Shown here: piece after piece, positions 15,014 to 61,444 of the stretch | How positions within the stretch are numbered: position 1 is the first letter of the stretch | Layout of the letters: every line of letters begins with the position of its first letter | Assembly (NCBI GenBank): GCA_964016885.1 | Contig: OZ024741.1 | Location: forward strand, 399,342,001 to 399,406,000 | From: Eledone cirrhosa | Lineage: Eukaryota | Length of the DNA stretch: 64,000 bases | Direction of reading: 5' to 3' | The notes under the pieces: generated by a model | Databases searched by the model: none | What the model was told of the DNA's origin: nothing | Seen by the model: only the letters and a program-made list of their open reading frames with translations | Program-made: the position numbers and the translations under genes

Positions 15014-15250
15014 GGAGGCACATGGCTTAGTGGTTAGAGCATTGGGCTTGTAATCGAAAGGTTGTGAGTTCAATTCTCAGACCGGGTGATGTGTTGTTTC
15101 CTTGAGCAAGACACTTTATTTCACGTTGCTCCAGTTTACTCAGCTGTAGAAATGAGATGATAGGGACTGGGGTCCCTTTCATTAAATTACCCAAGATACC
15201 TTGGAGGTGGCCAGCTAAACCTGCATAGGTGTGAGCTGTCACACACACAC
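15014..15250 (+). mobile_element. tRNA-derived CORE-like SINE family 2 (other copies 14200-14358 -, 24420-24690 -, 41980-42232 -, 54560-54722 -, 59118-59342 +)
   Basis: A-box TGGCTTAGTGG, B-box GAGTTCAATTC, CORE-like CCTTGAGCAAGACACTT. Confidence 0.85.
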
Positions 15251-16194: not shown

Positions 16195-17553
16195 AACACC
16201 CACGTCCCGTAGGGCCTACATAGGGTTAACCGCCAATAGTTGCAAGCAGCGTCTTTACATGCATACCCATTCTTTTCGTTACCCTCTAAAAAGGAATATG
16301 ACGTCACTTTCAGCTTATATCTGGAGTCTAAAAGACAACCACACCCAATATAAGTTACACTGTCAGATCCTAGCTAGGGCTAGATCGTATTACGGAAATA
16401 AAAGACCATGTGACCTCTGCGCCGCTGAGGCCCTGGAAATACCCTACGCCACAGACCACATCTTAAACAAAAAATCTGAGGCAATTTCGGCCTGTAAACA
16501 TAAATTGCACAAAACTTTCCTGTATTACAGCCCCACGTTATACTCTAACGGATAGCACGATCTATACGTGGATATTTTACGTCTTGATTTGGGAGCTAAG
16601 TATATGTTTTGTTTATTCCTTTACTTATTTGCATAGGTAAGTATATATTACCCGTATGTTTTGTGAAGGTATGTATACCTTCTCGTACGTATATTTGACT
16701 TATGGCGTATAATTTTTACATATTCTGGTATTTAGGGTTTGGTTATGTGTATACGGGAGTTTTGCGTCTGCGTGAGTATGCAGGTTCGTACGTATGGTGG
16801 GTGTGTGTATATGTGTACTTCTTGTTTTAGTTGACTTACGTCTCCGAACATTCGTGTATTTATTTGTAGGCAGGTGTGTACGCTTGTTATATACGTATTT
16901 ATTTACTTATATACGTTTATATAATTATTTATTTATTTGTACACAAGCATACACACACACACATATTTATATGTGCGTGGTTTTGTATACCTATGGTAAG
17001 GTTTTGGGTATGCTTGTGTATGTACGTATCTGTTTGCGTGTATGTATTTATTTGTTTCTATTACTTCTGTATTGTATTTATTTACTTTGTTCTTAACTCT
17101 GTAGCGGAGATTCATTTGGTCTCCTAGTTATAATTTTAGTCTACGACTTCTGCTATACCATTTACGGGGTTTTGTCTTTGCGTGCTATTGTTCTCCACGC
17201 TCCACATATGACATATTATCTTCGTTTTTTCGTTCATTGCCAGAGAACGTCTCTATGCACCACCTAAGAGAACATTAGTCTACGACCTCTTTTATACCAT
17301 AAACGTGGTTCTGTCTTTGCGCGTAATTGTTTTTCACCGCTCCTATTAATGACGTATTATTCGTTTTTCCCCGTTCTTTGCCAGCGAACGTTACCACGAA
17401 CCAAAGTATCGTCTTCCTGTCTTCCTCCGGTTGCAACGTTTTTTGAAATATCCAGTTCTGCGTTTACAGATTGACTTTGTTGGTTTCAGAAGATCCCGTT
17501 AAGGGTGAAAGCAGCGATTCTTTGCTTAAACTTTAATCTGTTATTTTAATAAA
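16195..17553 (+). mobile_element. 5'-truncated Penelope-like element: GIY-YIG endonuclease C-terminal half (to 16555) plus long 3' region ending in (TA)n
   Basis: AYIGLTANSCKQRLYMHTHSF...TSLSAYIWSLK...CDLCAAEALEI...LNKKSEAISACKH is the typical PLE GIY-YIG tail. The 3' end recurs at 53428-53560. Confidence 0.8.
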
Positions 17554-17723
17554 TATATATATATATTGGAATAAATGCTCTGAAATAGCGATATATATGT
17601 GAATATAGACATAGAATATTCGAAAATATTCTGTATGTTTATAATAAACATTTTGAAGACCTAATCGCTATAGAATAGAATACGTCACGTATTACAATTA
17701 GATTCTCGATAAAAGCAAGGGAA

Positions 17724-17766
17724 GTAATCTACGCGTTTCATTCTTGTTAGAAATCATCAGGACTAC
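17724..17766 (-). ncRNA. Type I hammerhead of array 1 (also 18034-18076, 18344-18386, 18654-18696)
   Basis: Reverse complement of GTAGTC CTGATGA TTTCT-aaca-AGAAT GAAA CGCG TA GATTAC. Confidence 0.9.
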
Positions 17767-18878
17767 ATATCCAGTGCTTTTATCGAGAATGACACAGCTA
17801 GAGACTTATAGAATACTTAGCTGTGTACAGGAACTGGTTTGAAAGAGCGGTTGCCGGTCCGGCAGAAATTAGAAATTGGAATAAATGCTCTGAAATAGCG
17901 ATATATATGTGAATATAGACATAGAATATTCGAAAATATTCTGTATGTTTATAATAAACATTTTGAAGACCTAATCGCTATAGAATAGAATACGTCACGT
18001 ATTACAATTAGATTCTCGATAAAAGCAAGGGAAGTAATCTACGCGTTTCATTCTTGTTAGAAATCATCAGGACTACATATCCAGTGCTTTTATCGAGAAT
18101 GACACAGCTAGAGACTTATAGAATACTTAGCTGTGTACAGGAACTGGTTTGAAAGAGCGGTTGCCGGTCCGGCAGAAATTAGAAATTGGAATAAATGCTC
18201 TGAAATAGCGATATATATGTGAATATAGACATAGAATATTCGAAAATATTCTGTATGTTTATAATAAACATTTTGAAGACCTAATCGCTATAGAATAGAA
18301 TACGTCACGTATTACAATTAGATTCTCGATAAAAGCAAGGGAAGTAATCTACGCGTTTCATTCTTGTTAGAAATCATCAGGACTACATATCCAGTGCTTT
18401 TATCGAGAATGACACAGCTAGAGACTTATAGAATACTTAGCTGTGTACAGGAACTGGTTTGAAAGAGCGGTTGCCGGTCCGGCAGAAATTAGAAATTGGA
18501 ATAAATGCTCTGAAATAGCGATATATATGTGAATATAGACATAGAATATTCGAAAATATTCTGTATGTTTATAATAAACATTTTGAAGACCTAATCGCTA
18601 TAGAATAGAATACGTCACGTATTACAATTAGATTCTCGATAAAAGCAAGGGAAGTAATCTACGCGTTTCATTCTTGTTAGAAATCATCAGGACTACATAT
18701 CCAGTGCTTTTATCGAGAATGACACAGCTAGAGACTTTATATATCGCTATTTCAGAGCATTTATTCCAATTTCTAATTTCTGCCGGACCGGCAACCGCTC
18801 TTTCAAACCAGTTCCTGTACACAGCTAAGTATTCTATAAGTCTCTAGCTGTGTCATTCTCGATAAAAGCACTGGATAT

Positions 18879-18921
18879 GTAGTCCTGATGATTTCTAACA
18901 AGAATGAAACGCGTAGATTAC
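18879..18921 (+). ncRNA. Type I hammerhead of array 1 (also 19189-19231, 19499-19541)
   Basis: GTAGTC CTGATGA TTTCT-aaca-AGAAT GAAA CGCG TA GATTAC; stem I is extended by a 16-bp helix ATTCTCGATAAAAGCA/TGCTTTTATCGAGAAT (18855-18870/18928-18943). Confidence 0.9.
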
Positions 18922-19962
18922 TTCCCTTGCTTTTATCGAGAATCTAATTGTAATACGTGACGTATTCTATTCTATAGCGATTAGGTCTTCAAAATGTTTA
19001 TTATAAACATACAGAATATTTTCGAATATTCTATGTCTATATTCACATATATATCGCTATTTCAGAGCATTTATTCCAATTTCTAATTTCTGCCGGACCG
19101 GCAACCGCTCTTTCAAACCAGTTCCTGTACACAGCTAAGTATTCTATAAGTCTCTAGCTGTGTCATTCTCGATAAAAGCACTGGATATGTAGTCCTGATG
19201 ATTTCTAACAAGAATGAAACGCGTAGATTACTTCCCTTGCTTTTATCGAGAATCTAATTGTAATACGTGACGTATTCTATTCTATAGCGATTAGGTCTTC
19301 AAAATGTTTATTATAAACATACAGAATATTTTCGAATATTCTATGTCTATATTCACATATATATCGCTATTTCAGAGCATTTATTCCAATTTCTAATTTC
19401 TGCCGGACCGGCAACCGCTCTTTCAAACCAGTTCCTGTACACAGCTAAGTATTCTATAAGTCTCTAGCTGTGTCATTCTCGATAAAAGCACTGGATATGT
19501 AGTCCTGATGATTTCTAACAAGAATGAAACGCGTAGATTACTTCCCTTGCTTTTATCGAGAATCTAATTGTAATACGTGACGTATTCTATTCTATAGCGA
19601 TTAGGTCTTCAAAATGTTTATTATAAACATACAGAATATTTTCGAATATTCTATGTCTATATTCACATATATATATATATATATTCATATATGGCGTTTA
19701 TTATTTTTATATTTACTATTATATATATATAGTTGATAAATGAAAGAAAACAAGCACAGGGATGCAAAAATACAAAGTCATATTAGATTAACGCTTGGAG
19801 GAAGTGGAGGAGTTAATATGGTTTTACAGTGCACGTGTCGTATCTATTAGTAGCGGCATCTCTGAAGTCACCTCGACATGGTGAAATGATAGTTATTTTA
19901 GAAAAAACAAAACAAAACAAAACAAAAACCGAATCGCACCCCAAACTGTTGATTATATACAT

Positions 19963-20021
<59 letters not shown>

Positions 20022-20415: not shown

Positions 20416-20495
20416 GTTATTCCGGGTTGAATCGGAGGTAACCACAGTAAGTAAGGTACTCAATACATAGCAGAGTATAAAGTTTTAATATAGAT

Positions 20496-20548
20496 GAGAT
20501 TCTACAGGACTAGAACTGTTTCATTCATTAGAAATCATCAGGAATCTC
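20496..20548 (-). ncRNA. Type I hammerhead ribozyme, family B (in fold-back element 20415-20603; the inverted plus copy 20549-20597 has GAAA->CAAA)
   Basis: GAGATTC CTGATGA TTTC-taat-GAAT GAAA CAG-ttctagtc-CTG TA GAATCTC; 7-bp stem I, 4-bp stem III, GUA site. Confidence 0.88.
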
Positions 20549-20600
20549 GATTCCTGATGATTTCTAATGAATCAAACAGTTCTAGTCCTGTAGAATCTCA

Positions 20601-20754
<154 letters not shown>

Positions 20755-26192: not shown

Positions 26193-26262
<70 letters not shown>

Positions 26263-26411
26263 CAGGTACACATATATATATGTACGTATCAGTTTAGCGG
26301 ACGTTTATTATAACGCCCGCTTTGTCCGTTTGTAAACAAACGGACAGCCTGATTTATGCCGTACGGTGCTAAGGCAACCACGTCACCTTTTTGTTCAACA
26401 CTGACACAGGA

Positions 26412-26454
26412 ACGATGTACTAGTTTCAAGCTTCTTAGCTATCATCAGCACCGT
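26412..26454 (-). ncRNA. Type I hammerhead ribozyme
   Basis: Reverse complement of 26700-26742. Confidence 0.88.
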
Positions 26455-26699
26455 ATACCCTTCTGCCAGATGGTTGAACGTTCGAAAGTATATACTTTCC
26501 TTATGAAAATTAACGGCTGAGCAGCTTAATTTGCATATCGAGTGAGAAATGAAATTTCGTTTCATCCTATTTCAACTTATCGTTTTCGGTGCGCCTGGCC
26601 GACTGAACTCACTCGATATGCAAATTAGGCTGCTCAGCCGTTAATTTTCATAAGGAAAGTATATACTTTCGAAGGTTCAACCACCTGGCAGAAGGGTAT

Positions 26700-26742
26700 A
26701 CGGTGCTGATGATAGCTAAGAAGCTTGAAACTAGTACATCGT
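26700..26742 (+). ncRNA. Type I hammerhead ribozyme
   Basis: ACGGTG CTGATGA T AGCT-aaga-AGCT T GAAA CTAG TA CATCGT; palindromic ACTAGT stem III, GUA site. Confidence 0.88.
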
Positions 26743-26892
26743 TCCTGTGTCAGTGTTGAACAAAAAGGTGACGTGGTTGCCTTAACACCGTACGGCATAA
26801 ATCAGGCTGTTCAGTTTGTTTACAAACGAACAAAGCGGGTGTTATAATAAACGTCCGCTAAACTGATACGTACATATATATATGTGTACCTG

Positions 26893-26936
<44 letters not shown>

Positions 26937-29099: not shown

Positions 29100-32000
29100 C
29101 ACCACCACTACCACTGCCACCATCACTACCACTGCCACCATCACTACCACTACCACCATCACTACCACTACCATCACCACTACAACTGCCACCACCACTA
29201 CCACTACCACCATCACTACCACTAACACCATCACTACCACTACCACCACCACTACCACTGCCACCATCACTACCACTACCACCATCACTACCACTACTAC
29301 CATCACTACCACTACCACCATCACTACCACTGCCACCATCACTACCACTGCCACCATCACTACCACTACCACCATCACTACCACTACCACAATCACTACC
29401 ACTGCCACCATCACTACCACTACCACCATCACTACCACTACCACAATCACTACCACTACCACCATCATTACCACTGCCACCATCACTACCACTACCACCA
29501 TCATTACCAGTGCCACCATCACTACCACTACCACCATCACTACCACTGCCACCATCACTACCACTGCCACCATCACTACCACTACCACAATCACTACCAC
29601 TGCCACCACCACAACCAATACCACCATCACTACCACTGACACCATCACTACCACTGCCACCACCACTACCACTACCACCATCACTACCACTACCACCATC
29701 ACTACCACTGCCACCACCACTACCACTACCACCATCACTACCACTGCCACCACCACTACCACTACCACCACCACTACCACTACCACCATGACTACCACTA
29801 CCACCATCACTACCACTGCCACCATCACTACCACTGCCACCATCACTACCACTGCCACCACCACTACCACTACCACCATCACTACCACTGCCACCATCAC
29901 TACCACTACCACCATCACTACCACTGCCACCACAACTACCACTACCACCATCACTACCACTGCCACCATCACTACCACTACCACAATCACTACCACTACC
30001 ACCATCACTACCACTACCATCATGACTACCACTACCACCATCACTACCACTGCCACCATCACTACCACTGCCACCATCACTACCACTGCCACCACCACTA
30101 CCACTACCACCATCACTACCACTACCACCATCACTACCACTGCCACCATCACTACCACTGCCACCATCACTACCACTGCCACCACCACTACCACTACCAC
30201 CATCACTACCACTACCACCATCACTACCACTGCCACCATCACTACCACTGCCACCATCACTACCTCTGCCACCATCACTACCACTACCACAATCACTACC
30301 ACTACCACCATCACTACCACTACCACCATGACTACCACTACCACCATCACTACCACTGCCACCATCACTACCACTGCCACCATCACTACCACTGCCACCA
30401 CCACTACCACTACCACCATCACTACCACTACCACCATCACTACCACTGCCACCATCACTACCACTGCCACCATCACTACCACTTCCACCATCACTACCAC
30501 TACCACAATCACTACCACTGCCACCACCACTACCACTACCACCATCACTACCACTGCCACCACCACTACCACTACCACCATCACTACCACTGCCACCATC
30601 ACTACCACTACCACCATCACTACCACTGCCACTACCACTACCACTACCACCATCACTACCACTGCCACCATCACTACCACTGCCACCATCACTACCACTA
30701 CCACCACCACTACCACTGCCACCACCACTACCACTACCACCATCACTACCACTGCCACCACCACTACCACTACCACCATCACTACCACTGCCACCATCAC
30801 TACCACTAACACCATCACTACCACTGCCACCACCACTACCACTACCACCATCACTACCACTGCCACCATCACTACCACTGCCACCATCACTACCACTACC
30901 ACAATCATTACCACTACCACTATCACTACCACTACCACCATCACTTCCACTACCACCATCACTACCACTGCCACCATCACTACCACTGCCACCACCACTA
31001 CCATCACCATCACTACCACTGCCACCATCACTACCACTGCCACCACCACTACCATCACCATCACTACCACTGCCACCATCACTACCATCACCATCACTAC
31101 CACCACCACTACCACTGCCACCACCACTACCACTGCCACCATCACTACCATCACAATCACTACCACTGCCACCATCACTACCAACACCAACACTACCACT
31201 GCCACCATCACTACCATCACCATCACTACCACCACCACTACCACTGCCACCACCACTACCACTGCCACCATCACTACCATCACAATCACTACGACTACCA
31301 CCATCACTACCATCACCATCACTACCACTGCCACCATCACTACCAACACCATCACTACCACTGCAACCATCACTACTATCACCACCACTACCACTGCAAC
31401 CATCACTAATATCACCACCACTACCACTGCCACCACCACTACCACTGCCACTATCACTACCACTGCCTCCATCACTACCACTGCCACCATCACTACCATC
31501 ACCATCACTGTCACCATCACTACCACTGCCACCATCACTTCCATCACCAACACTGCCATTGCCACAATCACTACAATCACCATCACTAGCACTGCCACCA
31601 TCACTACCATCATCATCACTACCACTGCCACCATCACTACCATCACCACCACTACCACTGCTACCATCACTACCATCATCATCACTACCACTGCCACCAT
31701 CACTACCATCACCACCACTACCACTGCCACCATCACTACCATCACCATCACTACCACTGCCACCACCACTACCACTGCCACCATCACTACCATCACCACC
31801 ACTACCATCACCACCACTACCACTGCCACCATCACTACCATCACCACCACTATCATCACCACCACTACCACTGCCTCCTTCACTACCACTGCCTCCATCA
31901 CTACCACTGCCACCATCTCTACCATCACCACCACTGCCTCCATCACTATCACTGCCACCATCACTACCACTACCACCATCACTACCACTGCCTCCATCAC

Positions 32001-35000
32001 TACCTCTGCCACCATCACTACCACTGCCACCATCACTATCATTACCACCACTACCACTGCCACCACCACTACCACTGCCACCATCACTACCATCACCACT
32101 ACTACCACTGCCACCATCACTACCATAACCACCACTACCACTGCCACCATCACTACCATCACCACCACTACCATCACCATCACTACCGCTGCCACCATCA
32201 CTACCATCACCATCACTACCACTACACCATCACTACCATCACCAACACTACCACTGCCACCATTACTACCATCACCAACACTACCACTATCACCATTACC
32301 ATCATCACCAACGCTACCATTGCCACCATCACTACCATTACCATCACTACCACTGCCACAATCACTACCACTGCCACCATCACTACCATCACCATCACTA
32401 CCACTGCCACCATCACTACCATCACCATCACTACCACTGCCACAATCACTACCATCACCATCACTACCATCACCACCATCACCACCACTACCACTGCCAC
32501 CATCACTATCATCACCACCACTACCACTGCCACCACAACTACCACAGCCACCATCATTACCATCACCATCACTACCACTGCCAACACCACTACTATTGCC
32601 ACCATCACTACCATCACCATCACTACCACTGCCACCATCACTACCATCAACATCACTACCACTACCACCATCACTACCACTGCCACCATCACTACCATCA
32701 CCATCAGTACCACTGCCACCATCACTACCACTGCCTCCATCACTACCATCACCAACACTACCATTGCCACCATCACTACCATCACCAACACTACCATTGC
32801 CACCATCACTACCATCACCATCACTACCACTATCACCATCACTACCACTCCTACCATCACTACAATCACCATCACTACCACTGCCACCATCACTATCATC
32901 ACCACCACTACCACTGCCACCAACACTACCACCGCCACCATCACTACCATCACCACCACTACCACTGCCACCATCACTACCATCATTATCACTACCACTG
33001 ACACCATCACTACCATCACCAACACTACCACTGCCACCATCACTACCATCACCACCAGTACCACTGCCACCATCACTATCATTACCACCACTACCACTGC
33101 CACCACCACTACCACTGCCACCATCACTACCATCACCACCACTACCACTGTCACCATCACTACCATCACCACCACTACCATCACCATCACTACCACTGCC
33201 ACCATCACTATCATCACCACCACTACCACTGCCACCATCCCTACCATCACTACCACTGCCTCCATCACTACCACTGCCACCATCACTACCACTACCACCA
33301 TCACTACCACTGCCACCATCACTAGCACTGCCACCATCACTATCATTACCACCACTACTACTGCCACCACCACTTCCATTGCCACCATCACTACCATCAC
33401 CACCACTACCATCACCACCACTACCACTGCCACCATCACTACCATCACCACCACTACCATCACCATCACTACCACTGCCACCATCACTACCATCACCATC
33501 ACTACCACTACACCATCACTACCACTGCCAGCATCACTACCATCACCATCACTACCACCATCACTACCATCACCATCACTACCACTGCCACCATCACTAC
33601 CACTGCCACCATCACTACCATCACCATCACTACCACTGCCACCATCACTACCACTGCCACCATCACTACCATCACCATCGCTACCATCACCACCATCACC
33701 ACCACTACCAATGCCACCATCACTATCATCACCACCACTACCACTGCCACCACCACTACCACAGCCACCATCACTACCATCACCATCACTACCACTGCCA
33801 CCATCACTACCACTGCCACCATCACTACCATCACCATCAGTACCACTGCCTCCATCACTACCATCACCAACACTACCATTGCCACCATCACTACCATCCC
33901 CAACACTACCATTGCCACCATCACTACCATCACCATCACTACCACTGCCACCATCACTACCACTGCCACCATCACTACCATCACCATCACTACCACTGCC
34001 ACCATCACTACCACTGCCACCATCACTACCATCACCAACACTGCCATTGCCACCATCACTACCATCACCATCACTACCACTGCCAGCATCACCATCACTA
34101 CCACTGCCACCATCACTATCATCACCACCACTACCACTGCCTCCATCACTACCATCACCACCACTACCACTGCCACCATCACTACCATCACCATCACTAC
34201 CACTGCCACCATCACTACCATCACCACCACTACCACTGCCACCATCACTACCATCACCACCACTACCACTGCCACCATCACTACCATCACCATCACTACC
34301 ACTGCCACCATCACCATCACTACCACTGCCACCATCACTACCATCACCACCACTACCACTGCCACCATCACTACCATCACCATAACTACCACTGCCACCA
34401 TCACTACCATCACCATCACTACCACTGCCACCATCACTACCATCACCACCAGTACCACTGCCATCATCACTACCATCACCACCACTAACACTGCCACCAT
34501 CACTACCATTGCACCAGCACTACCACTGCCACCACCACTACTACCACTGGCACCATCACTACCATCACGATCACTACCACTGCCACCATCACTACCACTG
34601 CCACCATCACTACCACTGCCACCATCACTACCATTGCCACCAACACTACTACCATCACCATCACTACCACTACCACCATCACTACCATCACCATCACTAC
34701 CACTGCCACCATCACTACCACCACCATCACTACCACTGCCACCATCACTACCATCACCATCACTACCAATTCCACCATCACTACCATCACCACCACTACC
34801 ACTACCACCAGCACTACTATCACCATCACTACCACAACCACCATCACTACCATCACCATCACTACCATCACCATCACTACCACTGCCACCATCACTACCA
34901 TCACCATCACTACCACTACCACCATCACTACTATCACCATCACTACCACTACCACCATCACTACCATCACCAACACTACCATTGCCACCATCTCTACCAT

Positions 35001-37610
35001 CACTATCACTACCACTGCCACCATCACTACCATCACGACCACTACCACTGCCACCATCACTGCCATCACCATCACTACCACTGCCACCATCACTACCACT
35101 GCTACCATCACTACCATCACCGTCACTACCACTGCCACCATCACTACCATCACCATCACTACCACTGCCACCATCACTACCATCACCACCACTACCACTG
35201 CTACCATCACTACCACTGCTACCATCACTACCACTGCTACCATCACTACCACTGCCACCATCACTACCATCACCATCACTACCACTGCCACCATCACTAC
35301 CATCACCACCACTACCACTGCCACCATCACTACCACTGCTACCATCACTACCATCACCATCACTACCACTGCCACCATTACTACCATCACCACCACTACC
35401 ACTGCCACCATCACTACCATCACCACCACTACCACTGCCACCATCACTACCATCACCATCACTACCACTGCTACCATCACTACCATCACCACCACTACCA
35501 CTGCCACCATCACTACCATCACCACCACTACCACTGCCACCATCACTACCATCACCACCACCTCCACTGCCACCATCACTACCATCACCACCAGTACCAC
35601 TGCCACCATCACTACCATCACCACCACCTCCACTGCCACCATCACTACCATCACCACCACTACCACTGCCACCATCACTACCATCACCATCACTACCACT
35701 GCTACCATCACTACCATCACCACCACTGCCACCATCACTACCATCACCACCACTACCACTGCCACCATCACTACCATCACCATCACTACCACTGCCACCA
35801 TCACTACCATCACCACCAGTACCACTGCCACCATCACTACCATCACCACCACTACCACTGCCACCATCACTACCACTGCCACCATCACTACCACTGCCAC
35901 CATCACTACCACTGCCACCATCACTACCATTGCCACCAACACTACTACCATCACCATCACTACCACTACCACCATCACTACCATCACCATCACTACCACT
36001 GCCACCATCACTACCACCACCATCACTACCACTGCCACCATCACTACCATCACCATCACTACCACTGCCACCATCACTACCATCACCACCACTACCACTA
36101 CCACCATCACTACCATCACCATCACTACCACTACCACCATCAATACCATCACCATCACTACCATCACCATCGCTACCACTGCCACCATCACTACTATCAC
36201 CATCACTACCACTACCACCATCACTACTATCACCATCACTACCACTACCACTATCACTACCATCACCATCACTACCATTGCCACCATCTCTACCATCACC
36301 ATCACTACCACTGCCACCATCACTACCATCACGACCACTACCACTACCACCATCACTACCATCACCATCACTACCACTGCCACCTTCACTACCACCGCTA
36401 CCATCACTACCATCACCATCACTACCACTGCCACCATCACTACCATCACCATCACTACCACTGCCACCATCACTACCATCACCACCACTACCACTGCCAC
36501 CATCACTACCACTGCTACCATCACTACCACTGCCACCATCACTACCATCACCACCACCTCCACTGCCACCATCACTACCATCACCACCACTACCACTGCC
36601 ACCATCACTACCATCACCACCACCTCCACTGTCACCATCACTACCATCACCACCACTACCACTGCCACCATCACTACCATCACCAACACTACCACTGCCA
36701 CCATCACTACCATCACCATCACTACCACTGCCACCATCACTACCATCACCACCACTACCACTGCCACCATCACTACCATCACCAACACTACCACTGCCAC
36801 CATCACTACCTTCACCATCACTACCACTGCCACCATCACTACCATCACCATCACTACCACTGCCACCATCACTACCATCACCACCAGTACCACTGCCACC
36901 ATCACTACCATCACCACCACTACCACTGCCACCATCACTACCATTGCCACCATCACTACCACTGCCACCACCACCACTACCACTGCCACCATCACTACCA
37001 CTGCCACCATCACTACCACTGCCACCATCACTACCACTGCCACCATCACTACCATTGCCACCAACACTACTACCATCACCATCACTACCACTACCACCAT
37101 CACTACCATTACCATCACTACCACTGCCACCATCACTACCACCACCATCACTACCACTGCCACCATCACTACCATCACCATCACTACCACCGCCACCATC
37201 ACTACCATCACCACCACTACCACTACCACCATCACTACCATCACCATCACTACCACTACCACCATCACTACCATCACCATCACTACCATCACCATCACTA
37301 CCATTGCCACCATCTCTACCATCACCATCACTACCATCACGACCACTACCACTGCCACCATCACTACCATCACCATCACTACCACTGCCACCATCACTAC
37401 CACTGCTACCATCACTACCACTGCCACCATCACTACCATCACCATCACTACCACTGCCACCATCACTACCATCACCACCACTACCACTGCCACCATCACT
37501 ACCATCACCACCACTACCATCACTACCACCATCACCATCACTACCATAACCATCACTACCACAGCCACCATCACCATCACTACCATCACTATCACTACCA
37601 CCACCACTAC
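29100..37610. repeat. ~8.5-kb triplet-based cryptic satellite (ACC/ATC/ACT/GCC; 18-bp core ACCATCACTACCACTGCC and longer derivatives)
   Basis: Read directly; it produces the poly-Thr/Pro/His/Val ORFs. Confidence 0.95.
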
Positions 37611-42683: not shown

Positions 42684-45600
42684 AGAGTGAGGAACCAGAG
42701 CTGTGAAGAACCAGAGCTGTGAAGAACCAGAGCTGTGAGGAACCAGAGCTGTGAAGAACCAGAGTTGTGAAGAACCAGAGCTGTGAGGAACCAGAGCTGT
42801 GAAGAACCAGAGCTGTGAAGAACCAGAGCTGTGAGGAACCAGAGCTGTGAGGAACCAGAGCTGTGAGAAACCAGAGCTGTGAAGAACCAGAGCTGTGAAG
42901 AACCATAGTTGTGAAGAACCAGAGTTGTGAAGAACCAGAGCTGTGAAGAACCAGAGCTGTGAAGAACCAGAGTTGTGAAGAACCAGAGTTGTGAGGAACC
43001 AGAGCTGTGAAGAACCAGAGCTGTGAAGAACCAGAGCTGTGAGGAACCAGAGCTGTGAAGAACCAGAGTTGTGAAGAACCAGAGCTGTGAGGAACCAGAG
43101 CTGTGAAGAACCAGAGCTGTGAAGAACCAGAGCTGTGAGGAACCAGAGCTGTGAGGAACCAGAGCTGTGAGAAACCAGAGCTGTGAAGAACCAGAGCTGT
43201 GAAGAACCATAGTTGTGAAGAACCAGAGTTGTGAAGAACCAGAGCTGTGAAGAACCAGAGCTGTGAAGAACCAGAGTTGTGAAGAACCAGAGTTGTGAAG
43301 AACCAGAGTTGTGAGGAACCAGAGCTGTGAGGAACCAGAGTTGTGAAGAACAAGAGTTGTGAAGAACCAGAGCTGTGAAGAACCAGAGTTGTGAAGAACC
43401 AGAGATGTGAGGAACCAGAACTGTGAGGAACCAGAGCTGTGAGGAACCAGAGTTGTGAGGAACCAGAGCTGTGAGGATCCAGAGCTGTGAGGAACCAGAG
43501 TTGTGAGGAACCAGAGCTGTGAGGAACCAGAGCTGTGAAGAACCAGAGCTGTGAAGAACCAGAGCTGCGAGGAACCAGAGTTGTGAGGAACCAGAGTTGT
43601 GAAGAACCAGAGCTGTGAAGAACCAGAGTTGTGAAGAACCAGAGTTGTGAGGAACCAGAGCTGTGAAGAACCAGAGCTGTGAGGAACCAGAGCTGTGAAG
43701 AACCAGAGCTGTGAAGAACCAGAGTTGTGAAGAACCAGAGTCGTTGAGGAAACAGAGCTGTGAAGAACCAGAGTTGTGAGGAACCAGAGTTGTGAAGAAC
43801 CAGAGTTGTGAAGAACCAGAGTTGTGAGGAACCAGAGCTGTGAAGAACCAGAGTTGTGAAGAACCAGAGCTGTGAAGAACCAGAGCTGTGAGGAACCAGA
43901 GCTGTGAAGAACCAGAGTTGTGAGGGACCAGAGCTGTGAAGAACCAGAGCTGTGAGGAAACAGAGCTGTGAAGAACCAGAGTTGTGAGGAACCAGAGTTG
44001 TGAGGAAACAGATCTGTGAAGAACCAGAGTTGTGAGGAACCAGAGTTGTGAAGAACCAGAGTTGTGAAGAACCAGAGTTGTGAGGAAACAGAGTTGTGAG
44101 GAACCAGAGTTGTGAAGAACCAGAGCTGTAAAGAACCAGAGTTGTGAAGAACCAGAGCTGTGAAGAACCAGAGCTGTGAGGAACCAGAGCTGTGAAGAAC
44201 CAGAGCTGTGAAGAACCAGAGTTGTGAAGAACCAGAGTTGTGAAGAACCAGAACTGTGAAGAACCAGAGCTGTGAGGAACCAGAGTTGTGAAGAACCAGA
44301 GATGTGAGGAACCAGAACTGTGAGGAACCAGAGCTGTGAGGAACCAGAGTTGTGAGGAACCAGAGCTGTGAGGATCCAGAGCTGTGAGGAACCAGAGTTG
44401 TGAGGAACCAGAGCTGTGAGGAACCAGAGCTGTGAAGAACCAGAGCTGTGAAGAACCAGAGCTGCGAGGAACCAGAGTTGTGAGGAACCAGAGTTGTGAA
44501 GAACCAGAGCTGTGAAGAACCAGAGTTGTGAAGAACCAGAGTTGTGAGGAACCAGAGCTGTGAAGAACCAGAGCTGTGAGGAACCAGAGCTGTGAAGAAC
44601 CAGAGCTGTGAAGAACCAGAGTTGTGAAGAACCAGAGTCGTTGAGGAAACAGAGCTGTGAAGAACCAGAGTTGTGAGGAACCAGAGTTGTGAAGAACCAG
44701 AGTTGTGAAGAACCAGAGTTGTGAGGAACCAGAGCTGTGAAGAACCAGAGTTGTGAAGAACCAGAGCTGTGAAGAACCAGAGCTGTGAGGAACCAGAGCT
44801 GTGAAGAACCAGAGTTGTGAGGGACCAGAGCTGTGAAGAACCAGAGCTGTGAGGAAACAGAGCTGTGAAGAACCAGAGTTGTGAGGAACCAGAGTTGTGA
44901 GGAAACAGATCTGTGAAGAACCAGAGTTGTGAGGAACCAGAGTTGTGAAGAACCAGAGTTGTGAAGAACCAGAGTTGTGAGGAACCAGAGTTGTGAGGAA
45001 CCAGAGTTGTGAAGAACCAGAGCTGTAAAGAACCAGAGTTGTGAAGAACCAGAGCTGTGAAGAACCAGAGCTGTGAGGAACCAGAGCTGTGAAGAACCAG
45101 AGCTGTGAAGAACCAGAGTTGTGAAGAACCAGAGCTGTGAAGAACCACACCTGAAGAACCAGAGAACCAGAGCTGTGAGGAACCAGAGTTGTGAGGAACC
45201 AGAGTTGTGAGGAACCAGAGTTGTGAAGAACCAGAGTTGTGAAGAACCAGAGCTGTGAAGAACCAGAGCTGTGAGGAACCAGAGTTGTGAGGAACCAGAG
45301 CTGTGAAGAACCAGAGTTGTGAGGAACCAGAGTTGTGAAGAACCAGAGCTGTGAAGAACCAGAGCTGTGAGGAACCATAGTTGTGAAGAACCAGAGTTGT
45401 GAAGAACCAGAGTTGTGAAGAACCAGAGTTGTGAAGAACCAGAGTTGTGAAGAACCAGAGTTGTGAAGAACCAGAGCTGTGAAGAACCAGAGCTGTGAGG
45501 AACCAGAGTTGTGAGGAACCAGAGTTGTGAGGAACCAGAGTTGTGAAGAACCAAAGTTGTGAGGAACCAGAGTTGTAAAGAACCAGAGTTGTGAAGAACC

Positions 45601-48600
45601 AGAGTTGTGAAGAACCAGAGTTGTGAGGAACCAGAGTTGTGAAGAACCAGAGTTGTGAGGAACCAGAGCTGTGAGGAACCAGAGTTGTGAGGAACCAGAG
45701 TTGTGAGGAACCACACCTGAAGAACCAAAGCTGTGAAGAACCAGAGCTATGAAGAACCAGAGCTGTGAAGAACCAGAGTTGTGAGGAACCAGAGTTGTGA
45801 GGAACCAGAGCTGTGAGGAACCAGAGCTGTGAGGAACCAGAGTTGTGTGGAACCAGAGTTGTGAGGAACCAGAGCTGTGAGGAACCAGAGCTGTGAGAAA
45901 CCAGAGCTGTGAAGAACCAGAGCTGTGAGGAACCAGAGCTGTGAGGAACCAGAGCTGTGAGAAACCAGAGCTGTGAAGAACCAGAGCTGTGAGGAACCAG
46001 AGCTGTGAGGAACCAGAGCTGTGAGAAACCAGAGCTGTGAAGAACCAGAGCTGTGAAGAACCATAGTTGTGAAGAACCAGAGTTGTGAAGAACCAGAGCT
46101 GTGAAGAACCAGAGCTGTGAAGAACCAGAGTTGTGAAGAACCAGAGTTGTGAGGAACCAGAGCTGTGAAGAACCAGAGCTGTGAAGAACCAGAGCTGTGA
46201 GGAACCAGAGCTGTGAAGAACCAGAGTTGTGAAGAACCAGAGCTGTGAGGAACCAGAGCTGTGAAGAACCAGAGCTGTGAAGAACCAGAGCTGTGAGGAA
46301 CCAGAGCTGTGAGGAACCAGAGCTGTGAGAAACCAGAGCTGTGAAGAACCAGAGCTGTGAAGAACCATAGTTGTGAAGAACCAGAGTTGTGAAGAACCAG
46401 AGCTGTGAAGAACCAGAGCTGTGAAGAACCAGAGTTGTGAAGAACCAGAGTTGTGAAGAACCAGAGTTGTGAGGAACCAGAGCTGTGAGGAACCAGAGTT
46501 GTGAAGAACAAGAGTTGTGAAGAACCAGAGCTGTGAAGAACCAGAGTTGTGAAGAACCAGAGATGTGAGGAACCAGAACTGTGAGGAACCAGAGCTGTGA
46601 GGAACCAGAGTTGTGAGGAACCAGAGCTGTGAGGATCCAGAGCTGTGAGGAACCAGAGTTGTGAGGAACCAGAGCTGTGAGGAACCAGAGCTGTGAAGAA
46701 CCAGAGCTGTGAAGAACCAGAGCTGCGAGGAACCAGAGTTGTGAGGAACCAGAGTTGTGAAGAACCAGAGCTGTGAAGAACCAGAGTTGTGAAGAACCAG
46801 AGTTGTGAGGAACCAGAGCTGTGAAGAACCAGAGCTGTGAGGAACCAGAGCTGTGAAGAACCAGAGCTGTGAAGAACCAGAGTTGTGAAGAACCAGAGTC
46901 GTTGAGGAAACAGAGCTGTGAAGAACCAGAGTTGTGAGGAACCAGAGTTGTGAAGAACCAGAGTTGTGAAGAACCAGAGTTGTGAGGAACCAGAGCTGTG
47001 AAGAACCAGAGTTGTGAAGAACCAGAGCTGTGAAGAACCAGAGCTGTGAGGAACCAGAGCTGTGAAGAACCAGAGTTGTGAGGGACCAGAGCTGTGAAGA
47101 ACCAGAGCTGTGAGGAAACAGAGCTGTGAAGAACCAGAGTTGTGAGGAACCAGAGTTGTGAGGAAACAGATCTGTGAAGAACCAGAGTTGTGAGGAACCA
47201 GAGTTGTGAAGAACCAGAGTTGTGAAGAACCAGAGTTGTGAGGAACCAGAGTTGTGAGGAACCAGAGTTGTGAAGAACCAGAGCTGTAAAGAACCAGAGT
47301 TGTGAAGAACCAGAGCTGTGAAGAACCAGAGCTGTGAGGAACCAGAGCTGTGAAGAACCAGAGCTGTGAAGAACCAGAGTTGTGAAGAACCAGAGTTGTG
47401 AAGAACCAGAACTGTGAAGAACCAGAGCTGTGAGGAACCAGAGTTGTGAAGAACCAGAGATGTGAGGAACCAGAACTGTGAGGAACCAGAGCTGTGAGGA
47501 ACCAGAGTTGTGAGGAACCAGAGCTGTGAGGATCCAGAGCTGTGAGGAACCAGAGTTGTGAGGAACCAGAGCTGTGAGGAACCAGAGCTGTGAAGAACCA
47601 GAGCTGTGAAGAACCAGAGCTGCGAGGAACCAGAGTTGTGAGGAACCAGAGTTGTGAAGAACCAGAGCTGTGAAGAACCAGAGTTGTGAAGAACCAGAGT
47701 TGTGAGGAACCAGAGCTGTGAAGAACCAGAGCTGTGAGGAACCAGAGCTGTGAAGAACCAGAGCTGTGAAGAACCAGAGTTGTGAAGAACCAGAGTCGTT
47801 GAGGAAACAGAGCTGTGAAGAACCAGAGTTGTGAGGAACCAGAGTTGTGAAGAACCAGAGTTGTGAAGAACCAGAGTTGTGAGGAACCAGAGCTGTGAAG
47901 AACCAGAGTTGTGAAGAACCAGAGCTGTGAAGAACCAGAGCTGTGAGGAACCAGAGCTGTGAAGAACCAGAGTTGTGAGGGACCAGAGCTGTGAAGAACC
48001 AGAGCTGTGAGGAAACAGAGCTGTGAAGAACCAGAGTTGTGAGGAACCAGAGTTGTGAGGAAACAGATCTGTGAAGAACCAGAGTTGTGAGGAACCAGAG
48101 TTGTGAAGAACCAGAGTTGTGAAGAACCAGAGTTGTGAGGAACCAGAGTTGTGAGGAACCAGAGTTGTGAAGAACCAGAGCTGTAAAGAACCAGAGTTGT
48201 GAAGAACCAGAGCTGTGAAGAACCAGAGCTGTGAGGAACCAGAGCTGTGAAGAACCAGAGCTGTGAAGAACCAGAGTTGTGAAGAACCAGAGCTGTGAAG
48301 AACCACACCTGAAGAACCAGAGAACCAGAGCTGTGAGGAACCAGAGTTGTGAGGAACCAGAGTTGTGAGGAACCAGAGTTGTGAAGAACCAGAGTTGTGA
48401 AGAACCAGAGCTGTGAAGAACCAGAGCTGTGAGGAACCAGAGTTGTGAGGAACCAGAGCTGTGAAGAACCAGAGTTGTGAGGAACCAGAGTTGTGAAGAA
48501 CCAGAGCTGTGAAGAACCAGAGCTGTGAGGAACCATAGTTGTGAAGAACCAGAGTTGTGAAGAACCAGAGTTGTGAAGAACCAGAGTTGTGAAGAACCAG

Positions 48601-49813: not shown

Positions 49814-49984
49814 AGTATATATTGGTGAGCGACTCCATAACAATCAACCAGCTGGCCTTCTTTTACATACGGTTTAGAATGTACGTATGTTAGTGGCATC
49901 TGTGAAATAAAATGGCTTCAAGCAGAGAGTTACACTGCATGGTGGTCTCGCCTTGCCGGAAACTTAACTTATGTTTTACAGCAT

Positions 49985-58524: not shown

Positions 58525-59439
58525 AATATATAATATATACATATATAATATATATGTATTTATATATATAATATAATATAAATGTATTTATATAAGTATA
58601 TTTATAGCGACACACATATGTCCAAAGCAGCTCTCTCATATCCCAATCAAGGTAGCTGTAAATATGTAAATATATACCAGGGAAGAAGAATGAACCTCTT
58701 CTCATCTTAACGCCGTTATAAACAGCGGCATAACTGTAAAAATACCGAGTGTTGATTTAGCATAAATTACTGTATTCAGTTCTTCCTGCTCGGCCAACAA
58801 TAAACTCCACTTAACATTTCTACTTGTGTCTCACATTCTTCGAAAATGGCTGCTACCCACGTGGTACATGTATGAAATCATAGTACGGTTCATTTCCATG
58901 GTGAATACCACAATTATGTATTGAGTACTTTTACTTAAAAAACAGTGCACTATATATGCCTCTCTATATGTCTGTATGTTTCTCTCTCTCTCTCTCCCTC
59001 TCTCACTTCCCCCTCCCTCTCTCACTCACTCCCTCTCTCTCTCTCTCCCTCTCTCACTTCCCCCTCCCTCTCTCACTCACTCCCTCTCTCTCTCTTTCAT
59101 ATATACCTGTATATAGAGAAGGCGCCTGACTCGTTTGTTAGGGTGTTCGGCTCAGAATCGTAAGGTCGTGAGTTCGTTTTCTCACAGCACGTTGTGTCCT
59201 TGAGCAAGACACTTTATTTCACGTTGCTCCAGTCCACTCAGCTGGCAAATATGAGTTTTACCTGTAACTCGAAGAGCTAGTCTTGTCACAATCTGTATAA
59301 CGCTGAATCTCCCCGAGAACAACGTTATGGGTGCACCCGTCTATATGTATATAGATATATTGATATTATATATATATGTATATATATATATATATATATT
59401 GATATTATATATATATGTATATATATATATATATATATA

Positions 59440-61352
59440 AATATAGACATAGAATATTCGAAAATATTCTGTATGTTTATAATAAACATTTTGAAGACCT
59501 AATCGCTATAGAATAGAATACGTCACGTATTACAATTAGATTCTCGACAAAAGCAAGGGAAGTAAATCTACGCGTTTCATTCTTATTAGAAATCGTCAGG
59601 ACTACATATCCAGTGCTTTTATCGAGAATGACACAGCTAGAGACTTATAGAATACTTAGCTGTGTACAGGAACTGGTTTGAAAGAGCGGTTGCCGGTCCG
59701 GCAGAAATTAGAAATTGGAATAAATGCTCTGAAATAGCGATATATATGTGAATATAGACATAGAATATTCGAAAATATTCTGTATGTTTATAATAAACAT
59801 TTTGAAGACCTAATCGCTATAGAATAGAATACGTCACGTATTACAATTAGATTCTCGACAAAAGCAAGGGAAGTAAATCTACGCGTTTCATTCTTATTAG
59901 AAATCGTCAGGACTACATATCCAGTGCTTTTATCGAGAATGACACAGCTAGAGACTTATAGAATACTTAGCTGTGTACAGGAACTGGTTTGAAAGAGCGG
60001 TTGCCGGTCCGGCAATATTCTATGTCTATATTCTATGTCTATATTCTATGTCTATATTCTATGTCTATATTCACATATATATCGCTATTTCAGAGCATTT
60101 ATTCCAATTTCTAATTTCTGCCGGACCGGCAACCGCTCTTTCAAACCAGTTCCTGTACACAGCTAAGTATTCTATAAGTCTCTAGCTGTGTCATTCTCGA
60201 TAAAAGCACTGGATATGTAGTCCTGACGATTTCTAATAAGAATGAAACGCGTAGATTTACTTCCCTTGCTTTTGTCGAGAATCTAATTGTAATACGTGAC
60301 GTATTCTATTCTATAGCGATTAGGTCTTCAAAATGTTTATTATAAACATACAGAATATTTTCGAATATTCTATGTCTATATTCACATATATATCGCTATT
60401 TCAGAGCATTTATTCCAATTTCTAATTTCTGCCGGACCGGCAACCGCTCTTTCAAACCAGTTCCTGTACACAGCTAAGTATTCTATAAGTCTCTAGCTGT
60501 GTCATTCTCGATAAAAGCACTGGATATGTAGTCCTGACGATTTCTAATAAGAATGAAACGCGTAGATTTACTTCCCTTGCTTTTGTCGAGAATCTAATTG
60601 TAATACGTGACGTATTCTATTCTATAGCGATTAGGTCTTCAAAATGTTTATTATAAACATACAGAATATTTTCGAATATTCTATGTCTATATTCACATAT
60701 ATATCGCTATTTCAGAGCATTTATTCCAATTTCTAATTTCTGCCGGACCGGCAACCGCTCTTTCAAACCAGTTCCTGTACACAGCTAAGTATTCTATAAG
60801 TCTCTAGCTGTGTCATTCTCGATAAAAGCACTGGATATGTAGTCCTGACGATTTCTAATAAGAATGAAACGCGTAGATTTACTTCCCTTGCTTTTGTCGA
60901 GAATCTAATTGTAATACGTGACGTATTCTATTCTATAGCGATTAGGTCTTCAAAATGTTTATTATAAACATACAGAATATTTTCGAATATTCTATGTCTA
61001 TATTCACATATATATCGCTATTTCAGAGCATTTATTCCAATTTCTAATTTCTGCCGGACCGGCAACCGCTCTTTCAAACCAGTTCCTGTACACAGCTAAG
61101 TATTCTATAAGTCTCTAGCTGTGTCATTCTCGATAAAAGCACTGGATATGTAGTCCTGACGATTTCTAATAAGAATGAAACGCGTAGATTTACTTCCCTT
61201 GCTTTTGTCGAGAATCTAATTGTAATACGTGACGTATTCTATTCTATAGCGATTAGGTCTTCAAAATGTTTATTATAAACATACAGAATATTTTCGAATA
61301 TTCTATGTCTATATTCACATATATATCGCTATTTCAGAGCATTTATTCCAAT
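59440..61352. mobile_element. Retrozyme-like array 2: 311-bp unit, ~1.85 copies (HHR minus: 59562-59605, 59873-59916) then ~4.2 inverted copies (HHR plus: 60217-60260, 60528-60571, 60839-60882, 61150-61193), junction ~60014
   Basis: Same unit as array 1 with 4 visible differences; HHR GTAGTC CTGACGA TTTCT-aata-AGAAT GAAA CGCG TA GATTTAC. Confidence 0.9.
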
Positions 61353-61382
61353 TTATATATATATATATATTGATATTATATA

Positions 61383-61444
<62 letters not shown>

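What the first reader, a model, noticed from the sequence alone, without database searches (positions are those of the whole stretch)
17566..19670. 310-bp tandem repeat with one hammerhead ribozyme per unit: candidate retrozyme / self-cleaving circRNA retroelement
Seen: every unit contains a complete type I HHR (GTAGTC-CUGAUGA-stem II-GAAA-CGCG-UA-GATTAC) closed by a 16-bp perfect helix. The rest of the unit is a chain of hairpins (AGAATATT-cgaa-AATATTCT, TGTTTAT/ATAAACA, AATACGT/ACGTATT, ACACAGCTA/TAGCTGTGT, TGCCGG/CCGGCA, ATAGCGAT/ATCGCTAT). The unit has no ORF and the copies look identical. Established: metazoan non-LTR retrozymes are tandem repeats of a few hundred bp with minimal type I HHRs; their multimeric transcripts self-cleave to monomers that circularise, and palindromic stem III (here ACGCGT) allows dimeric double-hammerhead cleavage. 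Inference: this is such a family, and the identical non-integer concatemers came from rolling-circle reverse transcription of a 310-nt circle. I cannot tell whether this family has been described.
Basis: partly seen in the sequence, partly recalled or inferred. Interest (0 to 1): 0.95.

Follow-up and report, generated by a model that had tools for sequence, protein, structure and literature searches.

The report
Two-armed hammerhead retrozyme with Penelope footprints
A young, abundant non-coding jumping RNA with a self-cutting ribozyme is pasted into the genome as two back-to-back strings of copies, and its ends suggest that the enzyme of Penelope-type retrotransposons copies a small RNA circle from both DNA strands.

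Summary
The 310-bp unit and its type I hammerhead are real, but the locus is not one tandem array. It is a palindrome of two arms: 17565-18737 (3.8 units, minus strand) and 18738-19674 (3.0 units, plus strand), set in (TA)n. A second copy lies at 59429-61357. The genome holds at least 13,512 units, roughly 1,400-1,700 insertions. In 44 of 44 two-armed loci scored, one arm ends about 130 nt and the other about 165 nt past the cleavage site, while inner ends are scattered and enriched for microhomology. Both arms carry the same locus-specific haplotype. This inverted-arm, tail and (TA)n pattern is the Penelope-like element (PLE) signature, and a young intact PLE family in this genome shows it in 6 of 6 inverted pairs. 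A dimer folds best as a double hammerhead, and a sister family swaps the C3-G8 core pair for U3-A8, so cleavage looks selected. Best reading: a non-LTR retrozyme whose circle is reverse-transcribed from both nicked strands by a PLE enzyme. The class is known; I found this architecture in no retrozyme paper searched. Cleavage, expression and the driver element are not shown.

The parts
17565..18737 (-). Left arm, 3.78 identical 310-bp units; outer end is the 'long' end (unit position 165, counting from the base after the cleavage site); inner end at position 233
18738..19674 (+). Right arm, 3.02 identical units; inner end at position 133; outer end is the 'short' end (position about 130-139, merging with (TA)n)
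18737..18738 (.). Inner junction of the two 5'-truncated arms; blunt here (0-nt overlap)
18916..19225 (+). One complete predicted monomer, cleavage site to cleavage site (310 nt); closes on itself through stem I and the 16-bp helix
   Evidence: (fold); cleavage site inferred from the hammerhead consensus
18879..18921 (+). Type I hammerhead: stem I 5' 18879-18884, CUGAUGA 18885-18891, stem II 18892-18905 (U.U plus 4 bp, AACA loop), GAAA 18906-18909, CGCG loop 18910-18913, cleavage after 18915, stem I 3' 18916-18921
19189..19231 (+). Type I hammerhead, second copy of the right arm
19499..19541 (+). Type I hammerhead, third copy of the right arm
17724..17766 (-). Type I hammerhead, outermost copy of the left arm (three more at 18034-18076, 18344-18386, 18654-18696)
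18855..18943 (+). 16-bp helix extending stem I (18855-18870 with 18928-18943); kept by compensatory changes in sister families
17565..17599 (-). About 35-nt 'tail' present at the long end only (unit positions about 131-165), the stretch between the two inferred RT start sites
   Evidence: meaning inferred from PMC11167929
17553..17564 (.). (TA)n target, left
19666..19685 (.). (TA)n target, right; overlaps the AUAUAUAU tract of the unit
59429..60014 (-). Second locus, left arm, 1.9 units of a 311-bp variant with four locus-wide changes; short end
60015..60053 (+). Second locus, junction insert: three copies of a 13-nt piece of the unit
60054..61357 (+). Second locus, right arm, 4.2 units of the same variant; long end

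Best explanation
A non-autonomous, non-coding retroelement of the non-LTR retrozyme kind that is mobilised by a Penelope-like (RT plus GIY-YIG) protein in trans. Step 1 (inferred): an arm is transcribed as a multimer. Step 2 (predicted by folding, supported by covariation, not assayed): neighbouring units pair through the palindromic stem III into a double hammerhead and release 310-nt monomers. Step 3 (inferred from known retrozymes): monomers are ligated into circles, in which a lone hammerhead cannot form stem III and so stays silent. Step 4 (footprint shown, enzyme inferred): a PLE protein nicks both strands of a (TA)n tract and primes two cDNAs at two internal sites, about positions 128-131 and 165-170, both on the same RNA or on identical ones. 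Step 5 (inferred from homogeneity): each RT runs round the circle for a random distance, median 3-5 turns. Step 6 (footprint shown): the two cDNA 3' ends are joined by microhomology or short templated inserts, giving a palindrome with one short and one long outer end. Step 7 (shown for the longest arrays): some arms later expand by DNA-level duplication.
For: Layout: 12 of 15 loci chosen by the ribozyme pattern or lying in the window are two-armed, all 12 with one short and one long end. With 40 more loci chosen by end patterns, 44 of 44 two-armed loci scored show the same; long ends at 165 (31), 170 (9), 172 (2), 163, 168. All 8 one-armed loci carry the short end (6 were picked by it). Inner ends scatter over the unit, 1 of 88 within 5 nt of the cleavage site. 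Junction overlap of 2 nt or more in 19 of 31 junctions without inserts against 18.6% for random joins, p 2e-7; 13 of 44 have inserts, mostly pieces of the element. The short end differs from the internal unit in over half of 55 ends (CAT, TAT and others in place of CAC), as expected if target DNA supplies those bases. One template per locus: 320 of 378 complete units equal their locus mode, 20 haplotypes in 45 loci, 28 of 32 arm pairs share the mode and the other 4 differ by 1-3 changes on a shared background; two random loci share a haplotype with probability 0.126. Ribozyme under selection: sister families B and C are 61-67% identical to this one yet keep core and helices, 14 of 23 pairs with changes on both sides (related sequences inflate this); in family C positions 3 and 8 covary, U-A 34, C-G 5, U-G 1 of 40, a swap described as natural in PMC4209133. 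Double hammerhead is the unconstrained best fold of the dimer. PLE link: inverted 5'-truncated copy, 30-40-bp tail and (TA)n bias are described for PLEs (10.1101/2021.04.23.441226); a purified PLE protein nicks and extends both strands and starts at two internal RNA sites that bound the tail (PMC11167929). A PLE family in this genome has many open 775-codon frames, 99.9% identity among the 29 best-scoring copies, a hammerhead of the same build in its pseudo-LTR, and one short plus one long end in 5 of 5 fetched inverted pairs and in L079.
Against: No cleavage assay and no RNA data. No autonomous PLE with sequence similarity to the unit was found: a profile of families A, B and C hit none of the pseudo-LTRs in the 80 PLE loci held, only separate insertions beside them; the young PLE's tail is about 55 nt, not 35, and its end sequences differ. 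In vitro, hammerhead cleavage was not needed for insertion by the anole PLE and uncleaved RNA was the main substrate (PMC11167929). Only 1 of 9 Xenopus retrozyme dimers cleaved in vitro (10.64898/2026.07.22.740005). The longest arms (L098, L102, L103, L133) carry repeated private variants, so part of their length arose after insertion; L118 switches haplotype within one arm. The best-scoring copies of families B and C are mostly 1-2 units per arm. Inner ends are not uniform (Rayleigh p about 0.02), which I cannot explain. 40 of 55 loci were chosen by their ends and all 53 outside the window come from the first 100 Mb of one contig.
Confidence: 0.68

Rival explanations
1. Same PLE enzyme and same two start sites, but the template is an uncleaved linear multimer transcribed from a few long master arrays; the ribozyme acts at another step or rarely.
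For: Cleavage is dispensable for insertion in vitro (PMC11167929); 8 of 9 Xenopus dimers did not cleave; long arrays of 15-27 units exist and could serve as masters; L118 is mosaic.
Against: 20 haplotypes in 45 loci, 14 of them seen once and present through all units of the locus, need a one-unit bottleneck followed by re-amplification. Classical twin priming on one linear RNA (recalled from L1 work) predicts that one arm stops near the other's start site; only 2 of 44 long arms end within 10 nt of 135 and 5 of 44 short arms within 10 nt of 166. Core covariation argues that cleavage is selected.
Confidence: 0.15
2. The template is the cleaved linear monomer, and multimers arise by repeated end-to-end template jumps of the RT.
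For: 13 of 44 junctions carry inserts, several of them repeated short pieces of the unit and one a 272-nt foreign stretch, so template switching occurs. Four of 45 loci have a locus-wide 1-nt insertion two bases after the cleavage site.
Against: Only 1 of 88 inner ends lies within 5 nt of the cleavage site, and private variants in 378 units do not cluster there; imprecise jumps should leave unit-specific scars.
Confidence: 0.07
3. Short solo pseudo-LTR insertions of a PLE that are amplified locally into minisatellites by DNA slippage or unequal crossover, the route proposed in 10.64898/2026.07.22.740005.
For: Post-insertion duplication is visible in four long arms; older sister families show short arms; the window holds other short inverted hammerhead elements.
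Against: Most family A arms are multi-unit although loci are 99.1% alike; both arms would have to expand independently and stay identical; no parent PLE carrying this unit was found.
Confidence: 0.08
4. Assembly artefact (fold-back chimeric reads or collapsed repeats).
For: Copies are identical, palindromes can arise as long-read artefacts (general knowledge), and no contig in the four runs laid spans the locus.
Against: Fixed, unequal outer ends in 44 of 44 loci, arms of unequal length, locus-specific haplotypes, the same layout in 5-10% diverged sister families, and many different inversion joints in the contigs of an independent-looking public run X2 (table 5).
Confidence: 0.02

Closest known systems
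Metazoan non-LTR retrozymes (Cervera and de la Pena 2020, PMC7229834: coral, mussel, axolotl)
   Same: Non-coding tandem units of 150-450 bp with one type I hammerhead, low G+C, dispersed in many arrays; axolotl variants have a one-pair stem III with a palindromic tetraloop, or a U.U mismatch at the base of stem II, both seen here.
   Different: The word 'inverted' does not occur in that paper's main text; no two-arm layout, tail or (TA)n target is described in the parts I read. There the RNAs were shown to cleave and circularise; here they are not tested.
Animal retrozymes as non-autonomous PLE derivatives (Li, Clavereau, Pollet 2026, 10.64898/2026.07.22.740005)
   Same: Links retrozymes to PLE pseudo-LTRs and proposes mobilisation by PLE enzymes.
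   Different: Evidence there is co-occurrence and pseudo-LTR similarity in Xenopus; 'tail' and 'orientation' occur 0 times and 'inverted' only in a reference; it favours local amplification for the tandem arrays. Here the evidence is the integration footprint, and no pseudo-LTR homology was found.
Endonuclease-bearing Penelope-like elements (Neptune/Nematis-type linker; Craig et al. 2021; anole Poseidon, Frangieh et al. 2024)
   Same: Inverted 5'-truncated copy, 30-40-bp tail on one end, microsatellite targeting, hammerhead upstream of the start sites, two internal RT start sites.
   Different: No ORF; both arms are many-unit concatemers of a 310-nt RNA; start sites lie about 130 and 165 nt after the cut.
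Newt satellite 2 and similar dimer-cleaving hammerhead satellites (as described in PMC4209133 and PMC7229834)
   Same: Weak palindromic stem III, double-hammerhead cleavage in multimers.
   Different: Here about 1,500 dispersed, very young palindromic insertions rather than long satellite blocks.
L1 twin priming
   Same: Both target strands prime cDNA and the products are joined by microhomology, giving an inversion.
   Different: Here both start sites are fixed and the two arms have independent lengths, which fits a circular or repeated template.

Membership tests
Non-LTR retrozyme | Type I hammerhead in every tandem unit | tested here: met
   7 of 7 in this locus; 378 of 378 complete units held keep the invariant core (13 of the 55 loci were chosen by that core)
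Non-LTR retrozyme | Unit of 150-450 bp, G+C under 50%, non-coding | tested here: met
   310 bp; 34% G+C over 18001-20000; one 30-codon ORF per unit
Non-LTR retrozyme | Many dispersed arrays, dimers to multimers | tested here: met
   13,512 core matches; 1,358 short ends; arms of 0.2-27 units
Non-LTR retrozyme | No LTRs, primer-binding site or polypurine tract | tested here: inconclusive
   No LTR-like flanks in 55 loci; primer-binding site and polypurine tract were not searched for
Non-LTR retrozyme | Self-cleavage of multimeric transcripts | not testable with these tools
   Predicted by folding and covariation only
Non-LTR retrozyme | Accumulation of monomeric circular RNA | not testable with these tools
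   No raw RNA reads were available to lay
Non-LTR retrozyme | Target-site duplication longer than 4 bp when present | tested here: inconclusive
   Ends lie in (TA)n, which hides duplications
Non-autonomous Penelope-like element | Inverted 5'-truncated copy next to the 5' end | tested here: met
   12 of 15 loci not chosen by their ends; 44 two-armed loci in all
Non-autonomous Penelope-like element | 30-40-bp tail on one end only | tested here: met
   44 of 44; modal difference about 34-37 nt, range 24-46 given the (TA)n ambiguity
Non-autonomous Penelope-like element | Microsatellite or AT-rich target | tested here: met
   Outer ends in (TA)n or TA-rich compound repeats in the loci mapped
Non-autonomous Penelope-like element | Sequence similarity to the pseudo-LTR of an autonomous PLE | tested here: inconclusive
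   No hit in pseudo-LTRs of 80 PLE loci held, a small sample of 10,595 GIY-YIG candidates
Non-autonomous Penelope-like element | Active autonomous PLE in the same genome | tested here: met
   RT plus GIY-YIG ORFs; young intact family with the same end geometry
Autonomous Penelope-like element | RT plus GIY-YIG ORF | tested here: not met
   No ORF over 42 codons in the locus
Rfam hammerhead families (clan CL00010) | Score at or above the gathering threshold | tested here: not met
   HH9 19.2 bits against 52; family B 18.6 bits; none at gathering in the window
Ordinary satellite DNA | Head-to-tail arrays at few loci with arbitrary ends | tested here: not met
   Two-armed, fixed outer ends, over a thousand loci

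The most novel reading that the evidence does not exclude
One 310-nt RNA circle, kept ribozyme-silent by its palindromic stem III, is copied by both RT subunits of a Penelope-type dimer at once, from two nicks in a (TA)n tract and two start sites 35 nt apart, by strand-displacing rolling-circle synthesis. Each insertion is then a fossil of a double rolling-circle reverse transcription, and the tandem and inverted forms of autonomous PLEs would arise the same way from circular RNA.
Probability: 0.45. Interest if true: 0.82.

Novelty: new variant of a known kind. Interest (0 to 1): 0.62.

Why it matters
How animal retrozymes get into genomes, and why Penelope-like elements form tandem and inverted insertions with a tail, are both stated as open in the papers read. 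This family supplies about 1,500 near-identical insertions whose ends record both RT start sites, the target and the join, beside a 99.9%-identical intact PLE that is a ready candidate enzyme. The published in vitro PLE assay could test circle against linear template directly with a 310-nt RNA. It would also be a natural case of circle-templated, target-primed integration, and a source of kilobase palindromes (at least 4 Mb of sequence) in an animal genome.

Tried and rejected
A DNA similarity search of the genome with the ribozyme region returned nothing because common words are skipped; pattern searches replaced it. Expression: no RNA holder listed; the four runs laid are contigs of unrecorded kind, and the 340-nt contigs in X1, X3 and X6 (one unit plus overlap) fit a tandem DNA repeat as well as a circle, so they are not used as evidence. 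Cognate PLE: no similarity of the unit to PLE 3' regions by blastn or profile; hits near PLE ORFs (L045, L080, L084, L207) are separate insertions. A PLE family whose short end resembles this element's (L091, L045) proved old, 83-96% identical with many stops, so it was dropped as the current driver; its ends could not be sampled further. Other PLE families seen were not dated beyond pairwise protein identity. The 30-codon ORF is not kept in frame in family B (read from the alignment), so a peptide role was rejected. No hammerhead-like core on the antisense strand. Absence of core mutations among private variants is not significant on its own (about 2-3 expected by my estimate, 0 seen). Earlier findings of this scan: none returned. 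Rows left out of the end count: L115 (partial duplicate), L133 (outer end beyond the stretch fetched), L041 (runs into N); L094 failed in the junction script. The host species was not determined; 'octopus' and 'cephalopod' were my guess from genome size and microsatellite load and served only as search terms. The paper on dimer cleavage of PLE hammerheads (PMC5785218) is not held.

Full report
What is there. The 310-bp unit is real and its copies are identical, but the locus is a palindrome: a left arm 17565-18737 (3.78 units) on the minus strand and a right arm 18738-19674 (3.02 units) on the plus strand, with the ribozyme-sense direction pointing outwards and both outer ends in (TA)n. A second locus at 59429-61357 has the same layout with a 311-bp variant whose four changes are in every unit of both arms. 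I number unit positions from the base after the predicted cleavage site (window 18916 = 1).

The ribozyme. Each unit has stem I (6 bp, extended by a 3-bp and a 16-bp helix), CUGAUGA, stem II with a U.U mismatch and 4 bp, GAAA, a CGCG loop closed by one A-U pair, and GUA. A loose descriptor matched 10 of 5000 shuffles. Rfam gives only a weak HH9 match below gathering. The single-pair stem III is not predicted to form in a monomer (probability 3e-6), whereas the unconstrained best fold of a two-ribozyme transcript is the double hammerhead, -109.9 against -94.9 kcal/mol for two single ones; the domain-swapped stem I has probability 0.63. Passages of PMC4209133 describe this arrangement as allowing cleavage in multimers and avoiding it in monomer circles. 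These are predictions, not assays.

Family size and age. The ribozyme pattern has 7,105 plus 6,407 exact matches in the 3.0-Gb assembly and 0 in the reversed control; this misses variants with A at core position 7, which are common in the loci held. End-specific patterns give 1,358 short ends and 841 forward long ends (the reverse count is inflated by multiple matches), so roughly 1,400-1,700 insertions. Locus haplotypes are 99.1% alike on average.

The integration footprint. I mapped 55 loci: 2 in the window, 13 chosen by the ribozyme pattern, 40 chosen by end patterns, the 53 all from the first 100 Mb of contig C1. Of the 15 not chosen by their ends, 12 are two-armed and each has one outer end near position 130-139 and one at 163-170. 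Over all, 44 of 44 two-armed loci scored show this (3 set aside, 8 one-armed, all 8 with the short end, 6 of them picked by it). Which arm is long or short, left or right, varies (25 against 19), arm lengths are not correlated (rho 0.21, p 0.17), medians 3.3 and 4.7 units, maximum 27. Inner ends are scattered; 1 of 88 lies within 5 nt of the cleavage site; they are mildly non-uniform (p about 0.02) and nearly absent from positions 284-12, which I noticed after the fact and cannot explain. Junctions show excess microhomology (19 of 31 with 2 nt or more, 18.6% expected) or inserts (13 of 44), mostly templated from the element. At the short end the last bases often differ from the internal unit (22 of 55 keep CAC in the commonest context, 23 read CAT), as expected if the (TA)n primer supplies them.

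One template per insertion. 320 of 378 complete units equal their locus mode; 45 loci show 20 haplotypes; 28 of 32 arm pairs share the mode and the other 4 differ by 1-3 changes on a common background, against 0.126 for random pairs. Fourteen haplotypes are seen once yet run through the locus. This needs a one-unit bottleneck and re-amplification, which a circle provides. Against over-reading: four long arms show repeated private variants, so they grew after insertion, and L118 changes haplotype within an arm.

Selection on cleavage. Two older sister families, B (315-316 bp) and C (316-323 bp), align over the whole unit at 61-67% to this family and about 81% to each other. They show the same two end positions and often two arms. 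Of 23 pairs scored across the three families, 14 change on both sides, with 92% of cells paired against 41-54% when partners are slid (the structure came from these sequences and they are related, so this is supportive, not a probability). In family C the core positions 3 and 8 read U-A in 34, C-G in 5 and U-G in 1 of 40 copies; PMC4209133 reports U3-A8 as a natural covariation, and PMC11167929 that a compensatory double change partly restores cleavage. Locus-wide changes in this family fall on tolerant positions (core position 7, loop 2, wobble pairs).

The likely enzyme. Passages of 10.1101/2021.04.23.441226 give the PLE signature: inverted 5'-truncated copy, 30-40-bp tail on one end, (TA)n bias. 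Parts 1-2 of 4 of PMC11167929 show a PLE protein that nicks and extends both strands, is modelled as a dimer and starts at two internal RNA sites bounding the tail; they also show that cleavage is not needed for insertion in vitro. This genome has 10,595 GIY-YIG candidates in several RT plus GIY-YIG families. One family (L077 and kin, C-terminal GIY-YIG with a CxxxxCxxC linker, the Neptune/Nematis type) has dozens of open 775-codon frames, 99.9% identity among its 29 best-scoring copies, a pseudo-LTR hammerhead with the same U.U base and a palindromic GUAC loop, and one short plus one long end in (TA)n in 5 of 5 fetched inverted pairs and in L079. Its tail is about 55 nt and its pseudo-LTR shows no similarity to the unit, so it is a candidate by age and geometry only.

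Mechanism. Shown: layout, fixed ends, target, junction signatures, haplotype sharing, covariation. Predicted: double-hammerhead cleavage. Inferred: transcription, circularisation, rolling-circle copying by a PLE protein from both strands. I put 0.9 on 'retrozyme-type element mobilised by PLE machinery' and 0.68 on the full circle model; the main rival is an uncleaved multimeric template (0.15).

Comparison and novelty. It works like, and on every feature testable here meets the definition of, a non-LTR retrozyme (PMC7229834: term passages and parts 2 and 4 of 6); the two experimental features are untested. The PLE connection is proposed there and argued in 10.64898/2026.07.22.740005 (parts 1-3 of 5 and a term search). 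Neither text, as far as seen, describes inverted arms or tails in retrozymes, nor did passages of two reviews (PMC7761336, PMC11722881). PMC4209133 does note opposite-strand pairs of minimal hammerheads 100-700 bp apart, linked to truncated PLEs. Searches for prior description found no report of this family or of this architecture; the giant squid genome paper lists 235 hammerhead matches without analysis (PMC6962438). The library lacks most subscription journals, Repbase and Dfam were not searchable, and I saw no supplements (those of the two preprints are closed, that of PMC7229834 I did not open), any of which could hold such a description. Verdict: known class, new family, with an integration footprint that seems undescribed and makes an open mechanism testable. 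Interest 0.62.

Noticed in passing
window 928-, 1325-/1556+, 2020+, 20541-, 26013+, 26448-/26706+, 57944+: At least five other type I hammerhead families in this one window, most with palindromic stem III loops; several form two-armed inverted elements in (TA)n (1067-1663, 20487-20607, 26221-26932) and recur in other loci. The genome looks saturated with PLE-type hammerhead elements.
   Followed up: partly
window 26693-26883: The inverted element here matches the profile of families A, B and C weakly (E 2.7e-5) and occurs as a 511-bp tandem in L086: possibly a fourth, distant sister family.
   Followed up: partly
window 17300-17556: The left flank is itself a very high-copy repeat in run X2 with a decayed hammerhead-like stretch near 17478-17520; the element inserted in its TA tail.
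   Followed up: no
L103:1599-1870: 272-nt GC-rich foreign sequence captured at the inner junction; no match among sequences held. Possible template switch to another RNA.
   Followed up: partly
L031, L037, L130 and window 59429-61357: Locus-wide 1-nt insertion two bases after the cleavage site (C in three loci, T in one); could be a ligation or RT scar at the circle junction.
   Followed up: no
L031, L032, L034, L036, L042 and window 59342-59440 / 61354-61514: The same imperfect TA-repeat variant lies on both sides of the insertion, fitting either insertion into a compound microsatellite or amplification of the target during repair.
   Followed up: no
window 59303-59345 and 61513-61600: Flanks of the second locus mirror each other as an inverted repeat followed by a direct copy, suggesting insertion into, or rearrangement with, another palindromic element.
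   Followed up: no
G000:C4:322583028-322592379 and C26:20694069-20705896: The young PLE family itself forms tandem copies with a period of about 4.2 kb and two-armed arrays, the same layout as the retrozyme at larger scale.
   Followed up: partly
L091 and L045 3' regions: An older PLE family has a pseudo-LTR hammerhead with a U3-A8 core, a U.U-based stem II and a palindromic CCGG loop, and an end resembling this element's short end.
   Followed up: partly
window 15023-15080: tRNA-like match (31.4 bits), probably the head of a tRNA-derived SINE.
   Followed up: no
window 29100-37610, 42687-49814, 54799-56221: Large minisatellite arrays (18/33-bp, 16-bp and 29-bp periods); the 29-bp unit resembles a tRNA 5' end.
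   Followed up: no
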